Position numbers and translations under genes: made by a program. From Candidatus Nealsonbacteria bacterium (GTDB lineage Bacteria > Patescibacteriota > Minisyncoccia > Minisyncoccales > MHMH01), in NCBI GenBank assembly GCA_016188865.1, contig JACPGX010000002.1:2398-66397 (forward strand): a stretch of 64,000 nucleotides of DNA, in the 5' to 3' direction. A model generated the notes under the pieces. That model was not told where the DNA came from, searched no databases, and saw nothing but the letters and a program-made list of their open reading frames with translations. This document shows positions 19,099 to 31,291 of this stretch, piece by piece. Position 1 is the stretch's first letter. Each line of letters opens with the position of its first letter.

Positions 19099-22000
19099 TT
19101 ATAATTTCTTCACCGCAAGACTAAGTTTTTGCCGATCAACATTTATTTCCTTCTCGCCTTTACCCGGCTTAAAATCCTTAGCCTTAATTTCAGATAAAAT
19201 AAACTTTTTATTTTTACCTAAAATTCTATTTAATTCTGACGCACCGGAATACTGGACAAAAATTTTATCTTTTGGCTTAAAGCCGGCTTCCTTTCTCATC
19301 TCATTAATCTGGCGAATAACTTCTCGAATAATTCCCTCTTCTTTAAGCTCTGGGGTAATTTTCGTATCCAATATTAAAATATTGCTGAAAATAATTTTCT
19401 TGACGTTAACTTCTTCTTTTATGAACTCTGATAAACCTTTCTCCATTTTCTCGGGAATCACAAGAGAAGTTAGGGGTTGGCGAACTTTTATGCCAGTCTT
19501 AGCTCTTTCGGCCAAGGCCAAAGCCACAATTTCCCTGACCCTCGTCATTTTCTGATTTAATTTTTTATTAATCAATTTTTTATTAGCCTTGGGCCAATCA
19601 GCCAAGTGGATACTGCGAGAACGCTTCTCGTAATGACGAGAAACGTTCTCGTAAATTTGCTCGGAGAGGAAAGGAATAAAGGGGGCGGTTAATTTTGAAA
19701 CCGTTTGAAGAACCAAGGTCAGAGTGCCGACAGCTTCGTTAAAACGCTTGCGCGACCTTCTGATATACCACAAAGACAGATCGTTAACCACAAAATCTTC
19801 AATAGCTCTGGCCGCTCCTGTTACGTCGTATTTATCAAGATTATAAGTAGTTTCTGCAATTAACTCATTTAATCGGGAAACCACCCACTTATCTAATAAG
19901 TTTTTAGTTTTTAGTTTATAGTTTGTAGTTTTAATATTATAAGTTTTGTAGAAAGTAAAACAATTCCACAAAATCAAAATAAACTTTTTCAAAGCTTGGT
20001 CTATGTCTTTTTCTGTAAAAAGTTTTGAATCGCCGGACTGATTAACTGTGTAAAAATACCACCTAACAGCGTCGGCGCCATATTTTTCAACAATATACCA
20101 AGGGTCAACGACATTGCCCCTTGATTTTGACATTTTCTCTCCTTTCTCGTCTAAAACATGGCCAGTAGAAATTACATTTTTATAGGGCGCGCCTTTTCCC
20201 AAAAGTGTGGAAACCGCCAAAAGTGTATAGAACCAGCCGCGAGTCTGATCGATAGCCTCTGAAATATAATCAGCTGGAAATATGGCTCCGGAAGCGAACG
20301 GCATACTGCCCGAATCAAACCAAACATCGCAAACTTCCGAAACCCTTGCCATTTTTTCTCCGCATTTAGAGCAATAGAATTTAATTTCATCTATATAAGG
20401 CCGATGAAAATCAACCCTCCCCTCTTTATCCAGGGGTAAATTTTTAAAATCCAGCTTGCGCCACTCTCCGGTCTTTATGTCTTTTTTAGCTAATTTTATT
20501 TTCAATAATTTTTCGTCAGACAAACCCTTGACTGCTCCTTCTAAAAGCCACAATGGATCGCAATGGCTGACAATTAAAATAGTTTTATTTTTATGCTTTT
20601 GATCAATATCGCTTATAAAGCTCATCATTCTTTTTCTAACTTCGCCCCAATTTTCCCCGCCTTCGGGCTTTCTCCCGTAAAAACTGTCTACGCTTTTCGG
20701 AAAATCTTTAAAATATTTTTCTTTCTTTTTACCCTGATAAATGCCAAAATTCATATCTCTTAAGCGCATATCAGAAATTATTTCTGCGCCAAGTTCTTCA
20801 TTAACGAGCTGGGCTGTCTGACGGGTTCTGTTCATATCTGAAAAATAAATTATATCTATTTTCTTTATTTTAAGTTCTTTAGCGGCTTTTCTTACATCGC
20901 TCTCCCCACCCTTGCTTAATAATATGGGACTTTTTTCCGGCCAAGGATAAATATAATCTCCATTATTAACCTGATGGTTATTTTGGCCGTGCCGCATAAT
21001 ATAATATTTATTGGCTGAAAATTTTTGACCCAATAAATCATTTTTACCACCGATAACTTCCTTGAGCCCGCAACTCTGACAGCTCCAAATCGGCAAAGGT
21101 GTTCCCCAATATCTCTCTCGGGAAAAAGCCCAATCTTTCAGTTCTTTTAGCCACTCGCCGAATCTCCCGTCTTTTAAATGCGAGGGCACCCAATTGATTT
21201 TTTGGTTGTTGCCGATCAGGTCTTTTTTTACGTCCTGCATTTTTATAAACCAGCTCTCTTTGGCGTAATAAAGAAGCGGCGATTTGCAGCGCCAGCAGAA
21301 AGGATAATCATGCTCGTATAATTCTTCTTTAAAAAGAACTCCCCTCTCCTGCAGGTCTTTAATAATCAACGGGTCCGCATCTTTAACAAACATTTCATTC
21401 CACTCATAATCCGGCGTTATCATTTTGCCTTCTTCATTAACGGTCACTAATACTGGCAAATTATTCTCTTTTCCTACCTTCATATCATCCTCGCCAAAAG
21501 CCGGAGCAATATGCACCAAACCTGTACCGTCTTCCATGGAAACAAAATCGCCGGCAACTACGCGATATTTCGATGTCCGACCTCCCGACAAATCTGACGG
21601 GAGATCGGACATCCCAAATATCCGTTCATATTCTAATCCAATTAAGTCCCTACCCTTAAATTCTCCAACGATTTCTCCAACTATGCCGACTGGCTTCATT
21701 CTATCTTTAGCTAAAATCAGATATTCCTCACCAACTTTTATTTTTACATAAGTAAATTCCGGGTTTACCGCTACCGCAACATTCCCGGGCAAAGTCCAGG
21801 GCGTCGTCGTCCACACGAGCAAAGAAGAGTCCTTGAATTTTAAATTTTTAATCTTAAATCTTACATAAATTGAATTTTCTTCAATTCTTTTGTACCCCTG
21901 CGCCACTTCATGGGAAGACAAACTTGTCCCACACCTCGGACAATACGGCACTACTTTGTAATCTTTGTACAAAAGCCCTTTTTGATAAATTTGTTTTACT

Positions 22001-22467
22001 ATCCACCATAAAGTTTCGATATATTCATTTTCATAGGTGACATAAGGGTGCTCCATATCTAACCAATAGCCAATCCTTTCGGTTAATTTCTCCCAATCTC
22101 GCTTGTATTGCCAAACCGATTCTTTGCATTGCTTATTGAATTCAGCGATACCATATCTTTCAATGTCTTTTTTATTTTTTAAGCCCAGCTTTTTCTCAAC
22201 TTCCAGTTCTACGGGCAAACCATGGGTATCCCAGCCGGCTTTTCTCAAAACCCTAAAACCCTGCATGGTCTTATAGCGGCAAATAATATCTTTGAAGGCG
22301 CGGCTTAAAACATGATGAATACCCGGCTTCCCATTAGCCGTCGGCGGTCCCTCGTAAAACACAAAATCCCGCGCCCTAGCGCGCTGTTTGATGCTTTTCT
22401 CAAAAATCTTCTTTTCTTTCCAGAACTTCAATATCTCTTCTTCTTTCTGGGAAAAATTTAACTCCAT
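19099..22467 (-). CDS. ileS: Isoleucyl-tRNA synthetase (type 2) with an inserted histidine-phosphatase domain
   Basis: HIGH (PPTANGKPGIHHVLSR), KMSKS, editing-domain TTPWTLPGN and WFDSG motifs. A PGAM-type domain sits at about aa 486-686 (YIMRHGQ ... IVSHCDPL). Confidence 0.95.
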   Translation of the reverse strand: MELNFSQKEEEILKFWKEKKIFEKSIKQRARARDFVFYEGPPTANGKPGIHHVLSRAFKDIICRYKTMQGFRVLRKAGWDTHGLPVELEVEKKLGLKNKKDIERYGIAEFNKQCKESVWQYKRDWEKLTERIGYWLDMEHPYVTYENEYIETLWWIVKQIYQKGLLYKDYKVVPYCPRCGTSLSSHEVAQGYKRIEENSIYVRFKIKNLKFKDSSLLVWTTTPWTLPGNVAVAVNPEFTYVKIKVGEEYLILAKDRMKPVGIVGEIVGEFKGRDLIGLEYERIFGMSDLPSDLSGGRTSKYRVVAGDFVSMEDGTGLVHIAPAFGEDDMKVGKENNLPVLVTVNEEGKMITPDYEWNEMFVKDADPLIIKDLQERGVLFKEELYEHDYPFCWRCKSPLLYYAKESWFIKMQDVKKDLIGNNQKINWVPSHLKDGRFGEWLKELKDWAFSRERYWGTPLPIWSCQSCGLKEVIGGKNDLLGQKFSANKYYIMRHGQNNHQVNNGDYIYPWPEKSPILLSKGGESDVRKAAKELKIKKIDIIYFSDMNRTRQTAQLVNEELGAEIISDMRLRDMNFGIYQGKKKEKYFKDFPKSVDSFYGRKPEGGENWGEVRKRMMSFISDIDQKHKNKTILIVSHCDPLWLLEGAVKGLSDEKLLKIKLAKKDIKTGEWRKLDFKNLPLDKEGRVDFHRPYIDEIKFYCSKCGEKMARVSEVCDVWFDSGSMPFASGAIFPADYISEAIDQTRGWFYTLLAVSTLLGKGAPYKNVISTGHVLDEKGEKMSKSRGNVVDPWYIVEKYGADAVRWYFYTVNQSGDSKLFTEKDIDQALKKFILILWNCFTFYKTYNIKTTNYKLKTKNLLDKWVVSRLNELIAETTYNLDKYDVTGAARAIEDFVVNDLSLWYIRRSRKRFNEAVGTLTLVLQTVSKLTAPFIPFLSEQIYENVSRHYEKRSRSIHLADWPKANKKLINKKLNQKMTRVREIVALALAERAKTGIKVRQPLTSLVIPEKMEKGLSEFIKEEVNVKKIIFSNILILDTKITPELKEEGIIREVIRQINEMRKEAGFKPKDKIFVQYSGASELNRILGKNKKFILSEIKAKDFKPGKGEKEINVDRQKLSLAVKKL
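19901..19935. repeat. Heptanucleotide tandem repeat (TTTNTAG-like x5) inside ileS
   Basis: tttttag tttttag tttatag tttgtag ttttaat. Encodes YNIKTTNYKLKTKNL. Confidence 0.75.
21572..21613. repeat. Palindromic element (diverged full-length copy), in-frame inside ileS
   Basis: GATGTCCGACCTCCCGACAAATCTGACGGGAGATCGGACATC. Encodes MSDLPSDLSGGRTS on the minus strand. Confidence 0.8.
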
Positions 22468-23196: not shown

Positions 23197-23769
23197 TTAT
23201 ATTTTAAAAATTTCCCTTAGAAAATCATCATTTTCTATATTCTCGGCGGTGATTAAACGAACTTCGCGCTGTCCCAACCCAAAGAACTCCCTCAATAACT
23301 CTACCTCATCTTTGCAGGGATAAGGATTAATCCAAACGCTTTTCTGCAAAGGCAAAAAACCTAATTCCCTTAATTTTCCCCTGAAAGCATTCCGTTGTAG
23401 ATTTTTAAGCTGAATGATATCAAAAATTACTATTCGCCATTTTTTATCCCATTTTTTCGGCTTATTTATATTCAAACTGTCAATTTGAAACCTGCCGGCC
23501 AATTTTCTCCCTTTTTCCGTCAAAGAAATATAAATTTGATGATTTTTATTTATAATTTTAATACATCCTTGCCTTCTAAGATTATAAAAGGTGTCGGAAA
23601 CTTTTTTCGCTTTATACTTGTCTTTATTTTGAAATCCTTTAATAATATTCGTGGCAAAATGGGGAGAGGTAGCAGCGATGCAAACCGCACCGGCAACGGC
23701 CAGCCACTTAAAAACATCTTTGGTGATTTCTGATTTCGGTTTTCTAAAATAATATTTATATTTACTCAT
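23197..23769 (-). CDS. PaaX-like / Cas2-fold domain protein with N-terminal hydrophobic segment and wHTH-like middle (paralogue 1)
   Basis: KWRIVIFDI...LRNAFRGKLRELGF.PLQKSVWINPY resembles the Cas2-like ferredoxin-fold core of PaaX-family proteins. Paralogue at 62063..62635. Confidence 0.6.
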   Translation of the reverse strand: MSKYKYYFRKPKSEITKDVFKWLAVAGAVCIAATSPHFATNIIKGFQNKDKYKAKKVSDTFYNLRRQGCIKIINKNHQIYISLTEKGRKLAGRFQIDSLNINKPKKWDKKWRIVIFDIIQLKNLQRNAFRGKLRELGFLPLQKSVWINPYPCKDEVELLREFFGLGQREVRLITAENIENDDFLREIFKI

Positions 23770-25521: not shown

Positions 25522-25833
25522 GTGGAAAGTATAATTGTCATACTCGTAGTTGCAGTTTCGTTTTTCATCATACCTATAGTCGTATTAATAGCAAACCAAA
25601 CTCATCCTAAGCCCAAGAAACCAAAAATCCTCTATTACAGACGGGAGCCAAATCCTAATGCTAGCTGGGATATTGCAAACCCCTATGACTACATTCCCGT
25701 TTATGAAGAGCAGAACGACAAAAATGTTTTAATCAACCCCTGGGAACCGGTGGATATTCCGAAAGAAAAAAGCGATAAACAAAATCACCCAATCAATCCC
25801 TGGGAAAAGAAAGTTTTGGAGGCAGGAAAATGA
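25522..25833 (+). CDS. Tail-family protein P1: single-pass membrane protein ending in the double-NPWE tail
   Basis: GTG start. One N-terminal TM followed by KPKKPK (tail predicted cytoplasmic). C-terminus is INPWEPVDIPKEKSDKQNHPINPWEKKVLEAGK. Stop overlaps the P2 start (ATGA). Confidence 0.65.
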   Translation: MESIIVILVVAVSFFIIPIVVLIANQTHPKPKKPKILYYRREPNPNASWDIANPYDYIPVYEEQNDKNVLINPWEPVDIPKEKSDKQNHPINPWEKKVLEAGK

Positions 25834-26327
25834 AACAAGATAGTGTTTTAACCGAAATGATTATAAAATTGTTAATAATTCTCTATAAAATATTTATTTT
25901 TTGGCCAATAAGGATTATCATTGCGCTTATTTACTACTTTATTCTTTACCCCTGGTTGGCTGCAATAAATGGTAAAGGCATAGATCCTCCCTTTGAAGCT
26001 TTAGCTTTGGATGATATGGATAGTTGTATATGCGCGCTCGTGGCGGACTTTTTTGTGATGATAACGATGATAATTATGCTGTACCAGAGTGCTCTTTGGG
26101 CGCCATTGGGCTATTTTATCTTCCGATTATTTTCTTATTTAGTTCCGTTGGCTTACTGCAAAGTGAAAGAGGAACAAATTTCTCTCCAGTCGCAACCCAA
26201 ACCTCAAGTGCAGTCTCAACCCAAGGCAACCAACCCCTGGGAGCCGGTGGATATTCCGAAAGAAAAAAATGATAAACAAAATCCCCCGATTAATCCATGG
26301 GAAAAGAAAGTTATAGAAATTAACTAA
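25830..26327 (+). CDS. Tail-family protein P2: multi-pass membrane protein ending in the double-NPWE tail
   Basis: Three to four TM segments. C-terminus is TNPWEPVDIPKEKNDKQNPPINPWEKKVIEIN. Confidence 0.7.
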   Translation: MKQDSVLTEMIIKLLIILYKIFIFWPIRIIIALIYYFILYPWLAAINGKGIDPPFEALALDDMDSCICALVADFFVMITMIIMLYQSALWAPLGYFIFRLFSYLVPLAYCKVKEEQISLQSQPKPQVQSQPKATNPWEPVDIPKEKNDKQNPPINPWEKKVIEIN

Positions 26328-26331
26328 CAAA

Positions 26332-26351
26332 GAGCCTCAACAAAGAGGCTC
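26332..26351 (+). terminator. Hairpin after P2 (GAGCCTC / GAGGCTC), duplicated after P3
   Basis: Same hairpin and flanks as 26852-26873. The T-run is weak. Confidence 0.4.
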
Positions 26352-26369
26352 CTTAATCAGCTGGACGGA

Positions 26370-26398
26370 TTGAACGAATGGGTGCGGGTGTATATTGT
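26370..26398 (+). promoter_or_regulatory. Putative promoter of P3 (TTGAAC-N17-TATTGT)
   Basis: TTGAACgaatgggtgcgggtgtaTATTGT, 30 nt upstream of the 26429 ATG. Confidence 0.35.
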
Positions 26399-26428
26399 AA
26401 TGTTGTACAAGAAATGAAGGGGGAAAGG

Positions 26429-26848
26429 ATGAATAATTCAGAATTATTGAGGGTAGTCACTGAAAGAACTAGGAGCGGGAAACTTCAGTGGCTTCAAAGG
26501 AAAAATACGTGGTGGTGTGATGTACGGCATGCTGAATTTGAATGTTATGGTTTGTCGCTGATATACTACCCCACATCTACCCCCTCGGATTTATGCCTGC
26601 GCATTGAGAATTACCAAAAATATATTGAATTAAGAGATAGAGGGTTCCGATTTTTTTCAAAACCAATTCATAAATTGTACGATCTGATCCGATATAAAAA
26701 TTTAATCCCGCCACAAACACTAAATCCGCATTCCAAAGATAGGCCTCAAGATCTTAATGTTTGGGAACCGGTCAATATCCCAAAAACTGCCAAAGAAAAA
26801 ATAGAAATCATCAACCCCTGGGAGAAGAAAGTGGCGGAAATCAACTAA
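26429..26848 (+). CDS. Tail-family protein P3: soluble protein ending in the double-NPWE tail
   Basis: ATG at 26429 preceded by GGGGGAAAGG. The track's 26378 start lacks an RBS. C-terminus is LNVWEPVNIPKTAKEKIEIINPWEKKVAEIN. Confidence 0.65.
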   Translation: MNNSELLRVVTERTRSGKLQWLQRKNTWWCDVRHAEFECYGLSLIYYPTSTPSDLCLRIENYQKYIELRDRGFRFFSKPIHKLYDLIRYKNLIPPQTLNPHSKDRPQDLNVWEPVNIPKTAKEKIEIINPWEKKVAEIN

Positions 26849-26851
26849 CAA

Positions 26852-26880
26852 AGAGCCTCAATAAAGAGGCTCTTTAAATT
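26852..26880 (+). terminator. Hairpin terminator after P3 (AGAGCCTC / GAGGCTCT)
   Basis: Duplicate of the P2 hairpin, followed by TTTAAATTTTT. Confidence 0.45.
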
Positions 26881-26881
26881 T

Positions 26882-26910
26882 TTGACAAAAATCTAAATTG
26901 GTGCTAAGGT
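26882..26910 (+). promoter_or_regulatory. Putative promoter of the vWA unit (TTGACA-N17-TAAGGT)
   Basis: TTGACAaaaatctaaattggtgcTAAGGT. Its position argues that the real vWA start is the ATG at 26972. Confidence 0.45.
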
Positions 26911-26971
26911 AATGCGTCTGAATGATTCAGATATTTTTGAGTACTTTAAAAATAAGGCGGGGAGGGCGAAT

Positions 26972-28672
26972 ATGTCTCCTGAAGATGAAAGATTAAGCCA
27001 GGTTATTGATTTCAGGGTCGGCAGAGGGGCTAAGGGAAAATATCCCATTGAAAGAAGGCCCCTTATTCCCGCTCCCTCAACTGATGGAAAAAAGATTTTT
27101 ATTCCAACGCCATTTCCTTTTTCCCAAGAAATGCTTATAGACACCATACGCCACGAAGCTGACCACATTAAAGAAATGGAAGACCTGTCGAGAAAAATCT
27201 CCAATAACCCAGCAACCGACGCCGCCAAGGAATATATTGAGAAATTTTTCTGGCGCAAGGAAGTTGAAGAAAACCCAACTCTAGCTTTTGAGATATTGAA
27301 TATCGTCTGGGATAACAGCATTGACGCTGCGGCCATAAAAGAATTGGCTGGTTCAAAAAGAATTTTTGAAAAAGAAAAACCAGGTATTTTAGCCAAAAGG
27401 CCGTCAACCGCTAGATTTAATGATTTAGATAAATTCCGCGAGCTATTCCTGCAAAAAACTCTGCTTGGCCAAACAAAGGAAGTAGTGCCGGAAAAATGGC
27501 AAACTCTGCTTGAAGAATGCGTTAATTATGCCAAAAATGCCCAAGGAAAAGATATTCCGGCTTACTTGGAGACTACTCAAAGCATATACCAAAAATTCAA
27601 GGAAAACTTTGATATCAAACAAAAACTCCAGAGATTGCCTCCTTTGCATGGCCGAGGAAAACCGGTAGAGGGTTTCCAAATTCCCCAAAATTATCGGGAA
27701 GAAGAAAATTCCAACCAAGGCAACGGCAAAAAAACATCCAAAAAGCCCAAAGAAAAAGAATCAAAAGAAAAAACGAACGAAACGCAAGAGAAAAACAAAC
27801 CACGGGAAAAATCTGAGGGGCGAAAAGAGCCAAAAGATAAGCGGGGAGAACAAAAGGAAACTCCCTGGCTGAATGAAGACAGAGATATTCTCAATCCAGC
27901 TCTTTTGGAACTTGAAGGCCGGGGAAAAGTCGGCGAAATAATCGGCAAACATTCTGGCGAGATTGAAAGAATGATTAAAATCTTCCGCCATTTAAAGCAA
28001 GAGGCCATGCTGCCCAAAAGGAAAAGGGACGGCCAAGAACTTGAGCTTGATGAATACATCCAGTCGGAATTGAAAAAAGAGGCGACCGGCGTTGATTCTC
28101 AAGAACCCATGTTTCTAAACGAAATAAAGAAAAAACCTAATCCAGCCTGGGCAATTTTGCAGGATATTAGCGGTTCAACCTCCGGCATCATCGAAGAACT
28201 GAAAGCCGCTTCAATCATTCTCGGCGAAACCATGAAAAGATCAAATTACCATTTCGGATTATATGCTTTCAACTCTGATGCTTCCGGCAAGGATTACCTG
28301 TATCCATTGAAAGACTTCGAAGAGAAATATTCTTTAGATTCTCTCAAAAAAATCCTTAACCTTCAAAGCGACGGCGGCACCGGCATGGCTGACGCCATTA
28401 AGTATCTTACGGAAAAACTGCTGAAACTACCCGGCTTCCCGCGAGGATTAATCGTAGTAACCGATGGAATGCCCAATAGGTTAGCTCCCGTTGAAAGAGT
28501 AATCAAGGAAGCTGCTTCAAGGGGCGTAATCGTAATTTTTGTCTGCGTTGGACAGCATTTGCCGGAAATAAGCAAAATCGTTAAAGAATATATTTCAATC
28601 AAGAACGAGGAAATTCATAAACTCCCGCAGGAAATGCTGGCAATTTTCAGAAAATACCGGCTGGCGAGGTGA
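26972..28672 (+). CDS. HExxH (putative metallopeptidase) plus K/E-rich linker plus vWA(MIDAS) protein, DUF2201-like architecture
   Basis: ATG at 26972 after GGGGAGGG (alternative upstream ATG at 26912). HEADH motif in DTIRHEADHIKEM. Low-complexity KE-rich stretch. MIDAS residues: DISGSTSG, SDGGTG, VVTDGMPN. Confidence 0.75.
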   Translation: MSPEDERLSQVIDFRVGRGAKGKYPIERRPLIPAPSTDGKKIFIPTPFPFSQEMLIDTIRHEADHIKEMEDLSRKISNNPATDAAKEYIEKFFWRKEVEENPTLAFEILNIVWDNSIDAAAIKELAGSKRIFEKEKPGILAKRPSTARFNDLDKFRELFLQKTLLGQTKEVVPEKWQTLLEECVNYAKNAQGKDIPAYLETTQSIYQKFKENFDIKQKLQRLPPLHGRGKPVEGFQIPQNYREEENSNQGNGKKTSKKPKEKESKEKTNETQEKNKPREKSEGRKEPKDKRGEQKETPWLNEDRDILNPALLELEGRGKVGEIIGKHSGEIERMIKIFRHLKQEAMLPKRKRDGQELELDEYIQSELKKEATGVDSQEPMFLNEIKKKPNPAWAILQDISGSTSGIIEELKAASIILGETMKRSNYHFGLYAFNSDASGKDYLYPLKDFEEKYSLDSLKKILNLQSDGGTGMADAIKYLTEKLLKLPGFPRGLIVVTDGMPNRLAPVERVIKEAASRGVIVIFVCVGQHLPEISKIVKEYISIKNEEIHKLPQEMLAIFRKYRLAR

Positions 28673-28675
28673 AAA

Positions 28676-29218
28676 ATGGAGTGGTTAATTAGGAGTTCAA
28701 AAGAAAAAAAAGAGCTGGAGATATTTGCGGTCGGAGGAAAGGACAAAAAGCTGGTTGCCAAAATTCTTGATGACTTTGTTTTGCAAAAACCGGAAGTCTT
28801 GCCCAAAAAAGCGCAAATCCAAAACTTAAATGGAAAAACCCTGGGTTTCATCGAAGCTTTTTATCCGGAAAAAGATGAAATTACAATTCTCTCCAGTCGG
28901 GGAAATTTGATCTCGCAACTCCAAAAAGGCAATAACCATCTGAAGGTTAGAGCAAGATTAAAGATGGGTTTCGTTTCTGGCGCTGTTAAGAAAGAAAAAT
29001 TCGAAATTATACCTTTGGCGCAGGCAGTTTTTAAAGAAAACTTAGGCGCCGGCATCCAGCAAATTTATTCTTTTGGAAAAGAAAAAATTTATTACTTTGA
29101 GAAAGACGATGAGATAGCCATTACCGTGAGAGGCGGAGCAAGATTTTTGAAATTTTTACCTCTTTTGCTTGCCCAAAGGGTTTGGCGGCAAGAGGAGATA
29201 AAAAAACTCTTATCATAA
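28676..29218 (+). CDS. Hypothetical 180-aa protein, apparent stand-alone homologue of the N-terminal domain of the neighbouring AAA ATPase
   Basis: By-eye alignment: KKLVAKILDDFVLQKPEVLPKK...GKTLGFIEAFYPEK versus KSPIAKVVFPDIAQNEVFLPVV...EEKIGEIQTWLPEE, and later EKFEI versus EKTFEI. Confidence 0.55.
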   Translation: MEWLIRSSKEKKELEIFAVGGKDKKLVAKILDDFVLQKPEVLPKKAQIQNLNGKTLGFIEAFYPEKDEITILSSRGNLISQLQKGNNHLKVRARLKMGFVSGAVKKEKFEIIPLAQAVFKENLGAGIQQIYSFGKEKIYYFEKDDEIAITVRGGARFLKFLPLLLAQRVWRQEEIKKLLS

Positions 29219-29235
29219 AACTAGAGATAAAAAAA

Positions 29236-29269
29236 ACCTTGTCAGTCACACACATTGACAAGGTTTTTA
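29236..29269 (+). terminator. Rho-independent terminator of the vWA unit
   Basis: ACCTTGTCA / TGACAAGGT 9-bp stem followed by TTTTT. The right arm doubles as the -35 of the next promoter. Confidence 0.7.
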
Positions 29270-29283
29270 TTTTCTGCTAAGCT
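29255..29283 (+). promoter_or_regulatory. Putative promoter of the P4-ATPase unit (TTGACA-N17-TAAGCT)
   Basis: TTGACAaggtttttattttctgcTAAGCT. The conserved leader starts 7 nt downstream, with the same geometry as at 25440-25498. Confidence 0.5.
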
Positions 29284-29289
29284 ATTTTG

Positions 29290-29312
29290 TCTAGCAACTT
29301 AAAAATTTAACG
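29290..29312 (+). promoter_or_regulatory. Conserved 5' leader box, copy 2 (TCTAGCAACTTAAAAATTTAACG)
   Basis: Matches 25475-25498 except for one substitution and one single-base indel. Confidence 0.55.
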
Positions 29313-29327
29313 AACGGGGTAAAAGAA

Positions 29328-29732
29328 ATGACGAAGACTAAAGAGCGGGGAATAACAAAAAATATCTGCATAATTTTGGGTATTACGGCTTGCGTTTATC
29401 TGTGGATGTTGATGGGTTTTTCTGATCATAAAAATCAATGGTGGGGCTGGGAGAAACCATGGAAATCGACAGAGGAGCATGCGATCGTTTATAAAATAGT
29501 GAGCATCCTATCCCCCTCGCCCTACCCTTACATCGGCAATTTCGCTACTGGAAATTATACTACTGGCAATACAATAATTCCTCCAGACCGAAAGGAAACT
29601 CTCGAAGAACCAGAAAAATGGAAAGAAACTTTAACCAATCCTTGGGATCCGGTGAATATTCCGAGGGAGGGCAAAAAGAAGGAGCCCCCAATCAATCCGT
29701 GGGAGAAGAAAATTTTGGAGGCAGAGCAATGA
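29328..29732 (+). CDS. Tail-family protein P4: single-pass membrane protein ending in the double-NPWE tail
   Basis: One TM (ICIILGITACVYLWMLMGF). C-terminus is TNPWDPVNIPREGKKKEPPINPWEKKILEAEQ. Stop overlaps the ATPase start (ATGA). Confidence 0.7.
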   Translation: MTKTKERGITKNICIILGITACVYLWMLMGFSDHKNQWWGWEKPWKSTEEHAIVYKIVSILSPSPYPYIGNFATGNYTTGNTIIPPDRKETLEEPEKWKETLTNPWDPVNIPREGKKKEPPINPWEKKILEAEQ

Positions 29733-31291
29733 AAGATTACCTGATTGTTTTTGAGGAAAAGGGAGTTTTTATTTTTGAGAGAGACACAAAAAAAAGTCCC
29801 ATAGCTAAGGTGGTTTTCCCCGACATCGCCCAAAATGAAGTTTTTCTGCCTGTAGTTTATCCGGTGTTATCGGCTAGCGAAGAAAAAATCGGCGAAATTC
29901 AAACTTGGCTACCCGAAGAGTGTCTATTCCGCAGCCGGATTAATTCCAAAATGTCCGAAACAATTAAAGACCAAAAAGTAATAAAAATAAAAGTAAAAAA
30001 CCTGATAGATGGAACGGAGAAAACGTTTGAAATCTATGGTCGGAACCGGCAAAACTTATCAAAAGAAGAGGCCGATAAATTAAAAGAGTACGGTTTTACC
30101 CGAGGTTTGGATATTATTCGAAACGAAAAAGTTGGCGCGATCGATTTTTACGAAAAAAAGGAAGGGCAAAGAGCGCTCTTAAAGCTTGCTGACAATCTAT
30201 CCTGGGAAGAATTCGCGATTTTAGCGGTGCTTGATAAAATTAATAATCAGCTCAAGGGCAAAAAAATAGCCGAGGAATTGATTAAGGTGACTGCCCCGAC
30301 AAGAGCTAAAACTAAAATTGTTTATAAAACACCGGAAAAAGAGGATGAGGAAAGGAAGGAAGTGGAGAAACACGCCGAGGCGGCGGATAGCTATCGAGAA
30401 TTTGTTGCCTCCCTTCCAGCTACCAGACAAGAAAGAGCAACTGAATATATCGACCAAAACGGCGAGTGGGATATTTTTAATGAATTCATGGATAGGCAAA
30501 AACCAGTTTTGATTAATGGCCCGACGGGCAACGGCAAATCAACGATGATTAAGTGGTATGCTAAAACTCGCGGCCAATCCTATTTTAAATATACCGGTCA
30601 CCGAGATACGGCCCTGAAAGATTTAGTCGGACTCTGGGTGCCGACTAGCGGAAAGCCCATTAAAGCTCCGGGTCCCCTAACTCTAGCTATGGTTCATGGA
30701 GGCATATTCCATTTTGAAGAAATCGGGCCGGTCAGCCAGGAAGTTCTTGAGGGCATTCATACCGTCCTTGATGATAAAGAAATCATTCTTGATTCCCAGT
30801 TCGGTTTTGAAGTGATAAAAGCTCACCCAGAATTCAAGATGGTATCCTCGGGAAATCTAAACAGGGGCTACACAGTGAATGAATTCAATGCCGCTTCCAT
30901 GGAGAGGTGGATTCAAATACGGCTGGGCTACCCGAATAAAGAAAACACTACTGAAATCATCGCTTCGGTAACCGGGATCGACAGACAAATCGCTGGAAAA
31001 TTGACTGAGATTACTTTTGAAATGAGAAATTTTCTCTTTCAAAACTACCAAATGGATTTCGGCTTGCGAGGCCCGGTAGCTGTGGCCGAGGCTTTCATGA
31101 ATAACTCCAATCAGCCCTTGATGAGACTAATCGAAGTTTGCATGATAAATCCGAAAGCGACCTATGACGAATCTGATTTGAGAAAAAGGTTAAGAGAAAT
31201 TGTTGAAAAACATTTCAATCTTGCGGATAGCGAACGAACTCCCGGAAACAGCAAAAAATTTGTTCCTCATAATAAGGCCCTGGACTCTTAA
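29729..31291 (+). CDS. AAA_5 (MoxR/CbbQ/NorQ-type) ATPase with an unassigned N-terminal region of about 260 aa
   Basis: Start at ATG 29729, after GGAGG and coupled to P4. The track's 29618 start overlaps P4 out of frame. Walker A is LINGPTGNGKST, Walker B is GGIFHFEEI, followed by SQEVLEGIHTVLDDKEIIL, typical of AAA_5. Confidence 0.8.
   Translation: MKDYLIVFEEKGVFIFERDTKKSPIAKVVFPDIAQNEVFLPVVYPVLSASEEKIGEIQTWLPEECLFRSRINSKMSETIKDQKVIKIKVKNLIDGTEKTFEIYGRNRQNLSKEEADKLKEYGFTRGLDIIRNEKVGAIDFYEKKEGQRALLKLADNLSWEEFAILAVLDKINNQLKGKKIAEELIKVTAPTRAKTKIVYKTPEKEDEERKEVEKHAEAADSYREFVASLPATRQERATEYIDQNGEWDIFNEFMDRQKPVLINGPTGNGKSTMIKWYAKTRGQSYFKYTGHRDTALKDLVGLWVPTSGKPIKAPGPLTLAMVHGGIFHFEEIGPVSQEVLEGIHTVLDDKEIILDSQFGFEVIKAHPEFKMVSSGNLNRGYTVNEFNAASMERWIQIRLGYPNKENTTEIIASVTGIDRQIAGKLTEITFEMRNFLFQNYQMDFGLRGPVAVAEAFMNNSNQPLMRLIEVCMINPKATYDESDLRKRLREIVEKHFNLADSERTPGNSKKFVPHNKALDS

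What the first reader, a model, noticed from the sequence alone, without database searches (positions are those of the whole stretch)
26972..28672. vWA protein combines an HExxH motif, a long K/E-rich spacer and a full MIDAS site
Seen in the sequence:
- DTIRHEADHIKEM (HExxH) lies in the N-terminal third.
- A low-complexity, charged run of about 55 aa follows (EEENSNQGNGKKTSKKPKEKESKEKTNETQEKNKPREKSEGRKEPKDKRGEQKE).
- A C-terminal vWA domain has DxSxS, T and D MIDAS residues.

Established knowledge: the layout of metallopeptidase-like N-domain plus VWA-like C-domain next to an AAA_5 ATPase is the poorly understood DUF2201 arrangement.

Inference: the protein could both bind (via MIDAS to an acidic residue in the tail, for example the invariant E of NPWE) and process its partners. 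The start codon is probably 26972. That ATG has a strong GGGGAGGG RBS, and the candidate promoter's -10 ends 1 nt before the upstream ATG at 26912.
Basis: partly seen in the sequence, partly recalled or inferred. Interest (0 to 1): 0.55.

Follow-up and report, generated by a model that had tools for sequence, protein, structure and literature searches.

The report
AAA-motor partner protein with protease-like site
This gene encodes the adaptor subunit of a small ATP-driven protein-remodelling machine (a relative of NorD, CobT and CbbO); unusually, its front domain keeps a complete zinc-protease motif, and the neighbouring genes all end in the same tryptophan-containing tail and are probably its clients.

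Summary
HEADH sits at residues 61-65, a 54-aa K/E-rich disordered spacer at 243-296, and a complete MIDAS (D398/S400/S402, T470, D498) in a C-terminal VWA domain. The start at 26972 is supported.

The protein is not a Pfam DUF2201 member: no HMM hit was found. It is a NorD/CobT/CbbO-type VWA cochaperone that pairs with the NorQ/CbbQ-type AAA_5 ATPase at 29729-31291. NTD + disordered linker + finger + VWA is the standard layout of that family.

The N-domain belongs to the CobT_N superfamily, whose crystal structure is reported to resemble peptidase M48C. Across that superfamily H61, H65 and D114 are the conserved core. NorD has lost the motif and many relatives have HQxxH. This small family (CPR, DPANN, Aerophobetes-type MAGs) keeps HExDH plus D114 in every aligned member. 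A zincin-derived metal site is therefore well supported; peptidase activity is plausible but untested.

Nearly every related locus also encodes 1-6 proteins with a Trp-centred C-terminal tail, plus a free-standing paralogue of the ATPase N-domain. The E of NPWE is not invariant.

Verdict: a new variant of a known kind, of moderate interest.

The parts
25522..25833 (+). Tail protein 1 (103 aa, N-terminal hydrophobic segment). Its C-terminal tail is NPWEPVDIPKEK...INPWEKKVLEAGK.
   Evidence: no family in Pfam, NCBIfam, PADLOC or PHROGs
25830..26327 (+). Tail protein 2 (165 aa, hydrophobic), with the same double NPWE tail. Its start overlaps the stop of tail protein 1.
26429..26848 (+). Tail protein 3 (about 139 aa, soluble), with tail NVWEPVNIP...INPWEKKVAEIN. 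The ORF opens at 26378, but the ATG at 26429 follows a GGGGGAAAGG ribosome-binding site.
26850..26875 (+). Terminator-like hairpin after tail gene 3. A near-identical hairpin follows tail gene 2 at about 26330-26355.
26972..28672 (+). The finding: a NorD/CobT/CbbO-type VWA cochaperone of 566 aa.
26972..27691 (+). N-terminal CobT_N-like, zincin-derived domain (residues 1-240). Order of elements: helix, two modelled beta strands (the second spans TDGKKIFIP), a long helix carrying HEADH, then six more helices.
   Evidence: Model pLDDT 89.9, pTM 0.89. Foldseek against viral CobT/VWA proteins gives TM up to 0.69. hhalign against Pfam-CobT-positive proteins gives probability 97.6%.
27152..27166 (+). 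HEADH (H61, E62, H65): the putative zinc ligands and the catalytic base.
   Evidence: Invariant in the family. H61 and H65 are invariant in the wider superfamily alignment A4.
27311..27325 (+). D114-N-S-I-D118 within the superfamily motif (I/V)xEDxR(I/V)(D/E). D114 is the candidate third metal ligand.
   Evidence: D114 is invariant and R116 is at least 90% conserved in A4; motif alignment.
27698..27859 (+). K/E-rich low-complexity spacer, the disordered linker (residues 243-296).
   Evidence: Its length varies among homologues. NorD and CobT have equivalent linkers.
27860..27880 (+). TPWLNED: a tail-like Trp segment in the protein's own linker. It may be a cis mimic of the client tails.
   Evidence: qualitative only
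27926..28672 (+). Pre-VWA 'finger' helices plus the VWA domain, with MIDAS D398/S400/S402/T470/D498 and a conserved C-terminus LPxExLxIFxxY.
   Evidence: NorD 9qhd_G E=3e-32 over residues 323-565. Foldseek top hits are NorD VWA plus finger. Conservation.
28676..29218 (+). 180-aa protein: a free-standing paralogue of the ATPase N-terminal extension. One was found in most related loci that extend far enough.
   Evidence: hhalign probability 97.9%, E=6e-13; loci
29232..29268 (+). Terminator-like hairpin (15-bp stem).
29328..29732 (+). Tail protein 4 (134 aa), with tail NPWDPVNIPRE...INPWEKKILEAEQ.
29729..31291 (+). NorQ/CbbQ-type MoxR AAA+ ATPase (520 aa) with an N-terminal extension of about 240-260 aa. 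The ATG overlaps the stop of tail gene 4 (ATGA).
   Evidence: Pfam AAA_5 E=1.5e-15 and CbbQ_C. PDB NorQ E=8e-25 and CbbQ E=2e-22. PHROG CobS-like E=2e-29. The start is inferred from homologues that begin MKRYIVEF or MREYLLVF.

Best explanation
The gene encodes the VWA cochaperone of a NorQD/CobST/CbbQO-type MoxR machine.

Inferred from the solved NorQD and CobST complexes: one copy sits on the hexamer of the adjacent AAA_5 ATPase. Its pre-VWA finger lies in the central pore and its conserved C-terminus docks on the ring. Its N-terminal domain is held on the small subdomain of one protomer. ATP-driven rotation of the VWA/finger relative to the N-domain stretches the disordered K/E-rich linker and applies force to a client.

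Shown here: the N-domain belongs to the CobT_N superfamily, which has an M48-like zincin fold. Unlike NorD, it keeps the full H61-E62-x-x-H65 plus D114 site.

Inferred: the site binds zinc and is probably an active peptidase. The clients are the locus-encoded proteins that end in a Trp-centred tail ([ILM][DN][PVI]W-x-[IV]-x-[IV]..P). A tail is captured by the zincin cleft next to the TDGxxIxLP strand and/or by the MIDAS through an acidic residue. The client is then remodelled or extracted by the motor and clipped. A tail-like segment in the protein's own linker may occupy the binding site in the resting state.
For: Family identity:
- The C-half (residues 323-565) matches NorD 9qhd_G at E=3e-32, with all MIDAS residues aligned.
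- Foldseek's top hits are NorD VWA plus finger.
- The neighbouring ATPase matches NorQ at E=8e-25 and CbbQ at E=2e-22, and carries AAA_5 and CbbQ_C.
- The NTD/linker/finger/VWA layout is the one described for NorD and CobT.

N-domain:
- The model is confident (pLDDT 89.9) and has the order helix, sheet, seven helices. CobT_N is described as one helix, a three-stranded sheet and eight helices, resembling peptidase M48C.
- Foldseek against the viral library puts CobT-like and VWA proteins on top (TM 0.5-0.69, E down to 2e-4). Weak hits to metallopeptidase-domain, IrrE, SprT and lethal-factor proteins follow.
- The N-domain profile finds 116 proteins among 1.84 billion. Nearly all of the full-length ones scanned carry a C-terminal VWA domain, and two are Pfam-CobT positive.
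- hhalign between the family N-domain and those CobT-positive proteins gives probability 97.6%, E=4e-12.
- The broad profile weakly hits CobT (E=0.047) and the minigluzincin MJ1213 (E=0.11), aligning the strand and HExxH regions.

Metal site:
- H61, H65 and D114 are the only invariant columns in the broad alignment.
- Of 56 domain hits, 34 have HExxH, 14 have HQxxH and 8 are degenerate.
- The core family keeps HE[AS]DHI and D114 in every aligned member, across bacteria and archaea.

Clients: 1-6 tail genes lie within the cassette in nearly every locus that extends far enough.
Against: - The H61/H65/D114 geometry is therefore inferred from conservation and helix periodicity only.
- Foldseek of the N-domain against the PDB gave no significant hit. 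The best were an M1 peptidase (E=0.89) and HtpX (E=7).
- The motif context RHEADHIKE has charged residues where classical zincins are usually uncharged or hydrophobic (my own knowledge).
- In NorD and CobT the homologous domain works as a docking and specificity module without HExxH, so catalysis is not needed for the basic mechanism.
- Nothing shows which component reads the tails. The ATPase N-extension and its 180-aa paralogue are equally good candidates.
- The membrane topology of the tail proteins was not determined.
Confidence: 0.55

Rival explanations
1. The N-domain is only a docking and specificity module, as in NorD and CobT. The HExxH plus Asp site would be a structural or relic metal site with no peptidase activity. 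The machine would then remodel, assemble or extract the tail proteins without cutting them.
For: The NorD NTD binds the small subdomain of NorQ and is proposed to confer target specificity. CobT_N binds CobS_S. Many superfamily members have HQxxH or degenerate motifs yet persist. The residues flanking the motif deviate from the classical zincin consensus (own knowledge).
Against: E62 is strictly conserved alongside the three putative ligands in all aligned family members at 30-55% identity, across bacteria and archaea. Relatives lose exactly this residue (E to Q) in 14 of 56 hits. That pattern suggests E62 is under selection here.
Confidence: 0.25
2. The H-x-x-x-H plus D site is a metal-handling site. 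It would hold a metal ion that the motor inserts into a client, by analogy with NorQD (Fe), CobSTN (Co) and CoxDE.
For: The characterised relatives are metal-insertion chaperones. The two His and the Asp are the most conserved columns of the superfamily, even where the catalytic Glu is lost.
Against: The apparent clients have no recognisable metalloenzyme domain, and some are 56-58-aa peptides that are little more than a tail. NorD and CobT themselves lack the motif. CPR and DPANN organisms have minimal metabolism (own knowledge).
Confidence: 0.1
3. The zincin domain cuts the protein's own linker in cis, as in the self-cleaving CLCA metalloprotease-VWA proteins. Cleavage would release or activate the VWA module.
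For: The linker carries a conserved, tail-like hydrophobic/Pro segment just after the charged spacer, and it varies in step with the clade's tail type. CLCA proteins combine an HExxH domain with a VWA domain and self-cleave (own knowledge).
Against: In NorD an intact linker of the right length is essential for function. The resemblance between linker and tail is qualitative and rests on four clades only.
Confidence: 0.07
4. It is a member of the Pfam DUF2201_N/DUF2201 family.
For: The overall idea is the same: a putative metallopeptidase N-domain, a VWA-like C-domain and a MoxR neighbour. Weak Foldseek hits go to viral proteins named 'Metallopeptidase domain containing' and 'VWA-like domain containing' (probability 0.4-0.66).
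Against: No PF13203 or PF09967 hit for the protein at E<=0.1, or for 16 family N-domains at E<=10. The C-domain is a canonical PF00092 VWA with a full MIDAS, closest to NorD. The N-domain links to Pfam CobT.
Confidence: 0.03

Closest known systems
NorQ/NorD (iron-insertion chaperone of cNOR; PDB 9qh6, 9qhd-g)
   Same: A MoxR AAA_5/CbbQ_C ATPase paired with a VWA partner built as NTD, long disordered linker, pore-inserting finger and MIDAS VWA with a conserved C-terminus. The C-half aligns at E=3e-32.
   Different: NorD's motif is degenerate (AAHASDRV) and its client is a respiratory enzyme. Here HExDH plus D114 are intact, the ATPase has an N-extension of about 240-260 aa, and the clients appear to be tail-tagged proteins encoded in the cassette.
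CobS/CobT (aerobic cobaltochelatase; Pfam CobT PF06213 plus CobT_C)
   Same: The N-domain superfamily is shared: hhalign probability 97.6% to PF06213-positive proteins, a PDB CobT hit at E=0.047 and viral CobT-like folds at TM 0.5-0.69. CobT_N is reported to resemble peptidase M48C. CobT also has a linker of about 90 residues.
   Different: The canonical CobT in the PDB has a degenerate third motif (VEQARVE) and works with CobN in B12 synthesis. No cob genes lie near this cassette.
Jumbo-phage MoxR-vWA pair in which the vWA protein is fused to an N-terminal metallopeptidase domain (Iyer et al. 2021, PMC7824862); Pfam DUF2201_N/DUF2201
   Same: The architecture is the same: zincin-like N-domain, VWA domain and a MoxR ATPase. 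The same bind-and-process role was proposed for the phage pair.
   Different: Those are predictions for phage virion assembly. This family is cellular (CPR, DPANN, Aerophobetes-type), gives no DUF2201 HMM hit, and comes with Trp-tail clients and a paralogue of the ATPase N-domain.
FxSxx-COOH-type peptide-processing systems next to vWA-MoxR ternary systems (Kaur et al. 2020, PMC7159879)
   Same: A zincin peptidase is combined with small, rapidly diverging precursor proteins whose conserved part is a C-terminal peptide, and the system is genomically linked to a MoxR-vWA pair.
   Different: There the peptidase is a separate gene, the motifs differ (FxSxx, RxD, acidic), radical-SAM or STAND partners are present, and the hosts are actinobacteria or multicellular bacteria. 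Here the peptidase-like domain is fused to the vWA protein and the motif is Trp-centred.
FtsH (an AAA+ ring with an M41 HExxH protease) and other tag-directed AAA+ proteases
   Same: An AAA+ motor is coupled to a zinc-protease motif. C-terminal tags on clients are reminiscent of degrons. In Aerophobetes-type loci two Band_7 (HflK/C-like) genes always follow the cassette.
   Different: The motor and the protease-like domain are on separate chains in a 6:1-type MoxR/VWA arrangement. By homology the pore is occupied by the VWA finger, so threading degradation is not expected.

Membership tests
NorD/CobT/CbbO-type VWA cochaperones of MoxR ATPases | C-terminal VWA domain with a complete MIDAS (DxSxS, T, D) | tested here: met
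   Pfam VWA E=2e-8. D398/S400/S402/T470/D498 align with the NorD MIDAS.
NorD/CobT/CbbO-type VWA cochaperones of MoxR ATPases | Pre-VWA finger/shaft segment that inserts into the ATPase pore | tested here: inconclusive
   Residues 323-390 align with the NorD finger region within the E=3e-32 match. Foldseek aligns 250-273 columns to NorD VWA plus finger. The model is of low confidence there (pLDDT 49-69), and no complex was modelled.
NorD/CobT/CbbO-type VWA cochaperones of MoxR ATPases | Folded N-terminal domain joined to the VWA domain by a long disordered linker | tested here: met
   The NTD (residues 1-225) has pLDDT around 90. Residues 241-317 have pLDDT below 50. The layout matches the NorD and CobT descriptions.
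NorD/CobT/CbbO-type VWA cochaperones of MoxR ATPases | Adjacent CbbQ/NorQ-type AAA_5 ATPase gene | tested here: met
   The gene at 29729-31291 carries AAA_5 and CbbQ_C and matches NorQ and CbbQ in the PDB. The adjacency is conserved in all related loci examined.
CobT_N superfamily (Pfam PF06213-related N-domain) | Sequence and fold similarity to the CobT N-terminal domain | tested here: met
   There is no direct PF06213 hit. However, hhalign gives probability 97.6% to PF06213-positive proteins, the PDB profile search hits CobT at E=0.047, and Foldseek matches viral CobT-like proteins at TM 0.5-0.69.
Zincin metallopeptidases (gluzincin/M48-like) | HExxH on an active-site helix preceded by a beta strand | tested here: met
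   HEADH (residues 61-65) lies in helix 52-77, after strands 26-30 and 42-46. The strand and motif align weakly to the minigluzincin MJ1213 (E=0.11).
Zincin metallopeptidases (gluzincin/M48-like) | Third metal ligand on a downstream helix, positioned next to the two His | tested here: inconclusive
   D114 in helix 102-124 is invariant across the superfamily, with D/E118 at i+4.
Zincin metallopeptidases (gluzincin/M48-like) | Zincin fold confirmed by significant structural match | tested here: inconclusive
   Foldseek against the PDB was not significant: M1 peptidase E=0.89, HtpX E=7. The support is indirect: a preprint reports that the CobT_N crystal structure resembles M48C.
Zincin metallopeptidases (gluzincin/M48-like) | Zinc-dependent peptide-bond hydrolysis | not testable with these tools
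   Requires biochemistry.
Pfam DUF2201_N (PF13203) + DUF2201 (PF09967) | Match to the family HMMs | tested here: not met
   No hit for the full protein at E<=0.1. No hit for 16 family N-domains at E<=10. None in 20 distant relatives scanned at E<=0.01-0.1.
Known anti-phage defence systems (PADLOC) | Match to any PADLOC model | tested here: not met
   No hit for the VWA protein. The ATPase gave only chance-level hits.

The most novel reading that the evidence does not exclude
The cassette could be a previously undescribed tag-directed processing system of ultra-small prokaryotes (CPR, DPANN and Aerophobetes-type bacteria). In this reading, a Trp-centred C-terminal tag marks a variable set of membrane and soluble proteins and mini-peptides for a MoxR motor. 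The motor's VWA adaptor carries a live M48-like zincin. The adaptor is kept off by a tag-like pseudo-substrate in its own linker. A free-standing copy of the ATPase N-domain assists it. It would also imply that the NorD/CobT/CbbO N-domains descend from an active protease.
Probability: 0.25. Interest if true: 0.8.

Novelty: new variant of a known kind. Interest (0 to 1): 0.55.

Why it matters
MoxR-VWA pairs are widespread, and their mechanism is only now being resolved through the NorQD and CobST structures of 2026. What the VWA partner's N-domain does is still an open question. This family shows the N-domain in what looks like its ancestral, catalytically complete state, and its probable clients are encoded right beside it and marked by a short shared tail. 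That makes the client-recognition and processing steps directly testable with synthetic peptides. It also adds a conserved, unannotated cassette to the very small shared gene repertoire of CPR bacteria and DPANN archaea.

Tried and rejected
- DUF2201 membership: no HMM support.
- NCBIfam and PADLOC gave nothing for the VWA protein or the small proteins. PHROGs gave only CobT/CobS-like matches.
- Foldseek of the N-domain against the PDB found no significant match. The narrow family profile against PDB sequences returned only a chance ECF-sigma hit.
- The word-indexed search with the broad N-domain profile A4, meant to find Pfam-annotated relatives, returned only two family fragments.
- BLASTP of the 180-aa protein against the ATPase N-extension was not significant (E=0.24). 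The profile-profile comparison was significant.
- The 'invariant E of NPWE' as MIDAS ligand was rejected as stated, because the position varies. Another acidic tail residue could still serve.
- The CLCA paper contained nothing on VWA or MoxR links.
- The tail proteins of other loci have no Pfam domain.
- A mobile-element or prophage origin for the cassette was considered. Nothing supports it: housekeeping genes flank it and base composition is even.
Full report
1. Observation.

The ORF at 26912/26972-28672 (+) exists as described. In the 566-aa product that starts at 26972:
- HEADH is at residues 61-65 (27152-27166).
- The run EEENSNQ...GEQKE covers residues 243-296 (27698-27859). It is 54 aa long and 59% K/E/R/D.
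- The MIDAS residues are D398-x-S400-x-S402 (28163-28177), T470 and D498.

About 0.013 HExxH motifs are expected by chance in a protein of this composition. The start at 26972 is supported by NCBI's own 566-aa call for the identical protein from a Candidatus Nealsonbacteria MAG (P0001). It is also supported by the aligned starts of all homologues and by a GGGGAGGG ribosome-binding site.

2. Family of the protein.

Pfam finds only VWA (PF00092, E=2e-8). No DUF2201_N or DUF2201 hit was found, and NCBIfam and PADLOC give nothing.

The family is small. A search of 5.8 billion clusters found 46 proteins. A scan of 185,579 species genomes found 18 loci. They come from CPR (Nealsonbacteria), MAGs labelled Aerophobetes or Clostridia, and Pacearchaeota, Woesearchaeota and other DPANN-type archaea. 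JGI names one member 'nitric oxide reductase activation protein'.

A family profile matches solved NorD structures over residues 323-565 at E=3e-32 (9qhd_G) and E=4e-27 (9qh6_G), with every MIDAS residue aligned. Foldseek with the full-length model puts NorD VWA plus finger on top.

The neighbouring gene (true start probably the ATG at 29729, overlapping the preceding stop) carries AAA_5 and CbbQ_C. It matches NorQ (E=8e-25) and CbbQ (E=2e-22) in the PDB and a CobS-like PHROG (E=2e-29).

The published NorQD and CobST structures describe exactly this layout. There is a folded NTD. A long disordered linker follows (NorD 242-393; about 90 residues in CobT). A finger or shaft then inserts into the ATPase pore. 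Last comes a MIDAS VWA domain, and in NorD the C-terminus docks on the ring. The 'long K/E-rich spacer' is therefore the family's linker: AlphaFold2 gives pLDDT below 50 for residues 241-317, and its length varies among homologues. In NorD the linker's length and specific regions are essential for function.

3. The N-domain and the HExxH.

In the family, HE[AS]DHI-x-E, E100-N101-P102 and V-x-D114-x-R-I-D118 are invariant or nearly so. A model of residues 1-240 is confident (pLDDT 89.9, pTM 0.89). Its elements run in this order: one helix; two strands, the second being TDGKKIFIP; a long helix carrying HEADH; and six further helices, the second of which carries D114 and D118.

No Pfam model matches any of 16 family N-domains, even at E<=10. 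Foldseek against the PDB is not significant; the best hits are an M1 zinc peptidase (E=0.89) and HtpX (72 columns, rmsd 3.0, E=7).

A profile of the N-domain alone was searched against 1.84 billion representative proteins and found 116 hits at E<=1e-3. Beyond the core family these are long proteins. Of the 20 scanned with Pfam, 15 carry a C-terminal VWA, CobT_C or VWA_CoxE domain, and the five without one are mostly short proteins of 137-535 aa. Two of the 20 are positive for Pfam CobT (PF06213) over the matching N-terminal region. hhalign between the family N-domain and those two gives probability 97.6%, E=4e-12, over all three shared motifs. The three motifs are TDGxxIxLP, HExxH and (I/V)xEDxR(I/V)(D/E).

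Of 56 domain hits that span the motifs, 34 have HExxH, 14 have HQxxH and 8 are degenerate. NorD itself reads AAHASDRV. In a 29-sequence superfamily alignment the only invariant columns are H61, H65 and D114, with R116 at 90% or more. The His columns were partly selected for when the sequences were chosen; D114 was not.

The broad profile weakly hits PDB CobT (E=0.047, third motif) and the minigluzincin MJ1213/selecase (E=0.11; the strand and HExxH regions align). Foldseek of the N-domain against predicted viral structures gives significant matches to haloarchaeal-virus and phage VWA or CobT-like proteins (E=2e-4 to 1e-2, TM 0.5-0.69). Weak hits to 'metallopeptidase domain', 'VWA-like domain', IrrE, SprT and lethal-factor proteins follow.

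A 2026 preprint on cobaltochelatase reports a 2.2 A crystal structure of CobT_N. It describes one helix, a three-stranded sheet and eight helices, and says the domain resembles peptidase M48C. This matches the order of secondary-structure elements in my model.

Conclusion for this section: the N-domain is a CobT_N-type, zincin-derived domain. In this family the complete motif (two His, the catalytic Glu and a conserved Asp that is the obvious third ligand) is retained. I could not measure the ligand geometry because the model coordinates are not exposed. Peptidase activity is untested.

4. Genomic context.

The cassette in the window runs from 25522 to 31291 on the + strand, between argS (-) and a threonine-dehydrogenase-like gene, with housekeeping genes on both sides. 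Its parts, in order:
- three tail proteins;
- a terminator-like hairpin;
- the VWA gene;
- a 180-aa ORF;
- a second hairpin;
- a fourth tail protein;
- the ATPase.

All related loci that extend far enough contain the same parts, with two caveats: the 180-aa paralogue was not found in every one, and two 'Clostridia'-MAG loci showed no clear tail.

The 180-aa protein family is a free-standing paralogue of the ATPase's N-terminal extension of about 240 aa (hhalign probability 97.9%, E=6e-13).

With those two exceptions, each locus carries 1-6 genes whose products have unrelated, unannotated N-terminal parts but share a charged C-terminal tail with one or two Trp motifs:
- CPR: NPWEPVDIPKEK...INPWEKK.
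- L002: xWEEEIExP...NPWE, including peptides of 56-58 aa.
- Archaea: (I/V)(N/D)PW(D/E/K/S)(I/V)x(I/V)P(R/K/E)(L/I). One locus (L016) has six such genes, in two runs of three.
- A Woesearchaeota locus (L022): a double DPWCELEE...DPWVKLE motif.
- Aerophobetes-type: LD(V/I)WRIEIE(E)P...DFDR(V/I)W.

The residue after W is R, E, D, C, S or H, so the 'invariant E' does not hold. Within the 64-kb window the motif occurs only in these four genes.

5. Mechanism.

Shown:
- family identity;
- domain layout;
- a conserved putative metal triad plus Glu;
- a conserved cassette with tail-bearing neighbours.

Inferred by homology to NorQD and CobST: a 6:1-type complex with the finger in the pore and the NTD on a small subdomain, in which ATP-driven rotation stretches the linker.

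Inferred from context: the tail proteins are the clients. The zincin cleft and/or the MIDAS captures the tail. The retained catalytic Glu suggests the client or its tail is clipped.

The VWA protein's own linker contains a short segment just after the charged spacer that resembles the tail type of its clade:
- window: TPWLNEDRDILNP;
- Aerophobetes-type: GPF(I/V)RIVPKPSPGV;
- archaea: YG(V/I)RI(Q/H)VVEP, or EGMEICIPQPRLEE in L020.

This could be a cis pseudo-substrate. It echoes the NorD model, in which the linker covers the NTD surface. The resemblance is qualitative.

6. Comparison and novelty.

The architecture 'metallopeptidase N-domain plus vWA with a MoxR ATPase' is already on record. It was described for group 2.2 jumbo phages, with a proposed chaperone-plus-processing role, and it exists in Pfam as DUF2201_N/DUF2201. 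Zincin peptidases that release conserved C-terminal peptides from variable precursors have also been described next to vWA-MoxR systems. The M48C-like nature of CobT_N has just been reported.

Three things appear to be new here:
- A cellular CPR/DPANN/Aerophobetes-type family of NorD/CobT-type cochaperones retains the full zincin motif.
- H/H/D is the conserved core of the NorD/CbbO/CobT-like N-domain superfamily, with frequent E-to-Q loss. Earlier NorQD work described these N-domains as unrelated.
- The family is tightly linked to Trp-tail proteins and to a paralogue of the ATPase N-domain.

I found no paper describing this cassette. I rate it a new variant of a known kind, with interest about 0.55.

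Noticed in passing
window 27860-27901; L001, L004, L017, L019, L020 and other loci (VWA linker): Just after the charged spacer, the VWA protein's own linker carries a short conserved segment that resembles the client-tail motif of the same clade. Examples are TPWLNEDRDILNP, GPFIRIVPKPSPGV, YGVRIQVVEP and EGMEICIPQPRLEE. It could be a cis pseudo-substrate or a self-cleavage site.
   Followed up: partly
window 28676-29218 and 29729-30450: The 180-aa ORF downstream of the VWA gene is a free-standing paralogue of the ATPase's N-terminal extension (hhalign probability 97.9%, E=6e-13). It was found in most related loci examined. Neither part has a known domain.
   Followed up: yes
L001, L005, L006, L008, L009, L011-L014, L021, L023 (downstream of the VWA gene): In all Aerophobetes-type and 'Clostridia'-MAG loci the cassette is immediately followed by Band_7 (HflK/HflC-like) genes: two where the contig extends far enough, at least one otherwise. 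This recalls the FtsH-HflKC partnership, but it may simply be inherited synteny.
   Followed up: no
L002 3996-5264 and 5282-7719: In the closest relative's locus (52% identity) a Peptidase_M16 gene and three peptides of 56-58 aa that are little more than the Trp tail lie within the cassette, between the VWA and ATPase genes or just downstream of the ATPase.
   Followed up: no
window 30700-30730 (ATPase): The ATPase Walker B region reads FHFEEIGP, that is EE rather than the usual DE. This holds throughout the family (YFEEIGP, VLEEMPP).
   Followed up: no
window 19099-22467 (-): The isoleucyl-tRNA synthetase (1122 aa) has a complete histidine-phosphatase domain inserted inside its catalytic domain (Pfam His_Phos_1, residues 489-662, E=4e-33).
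   Followed up: partly
window 26328-26355 and 26850-26875: Near-identical GC-rich hairpins (AAAGAGCCTCAAxAAAGAGGCTC) follow tail genes 2 and 3 directly after TAA stops. The tails and their 3' flanks look like recently duplicated or homogenised DNA.
   Followed up: no
window 23197-23769 (-): A 190-aa protein with a PaaX central Cas2-like domain (Pfam PaaX_M, E=3e-18) lies between argS and ileS, with no CRISPR context seen nearby.
   Followed up: no
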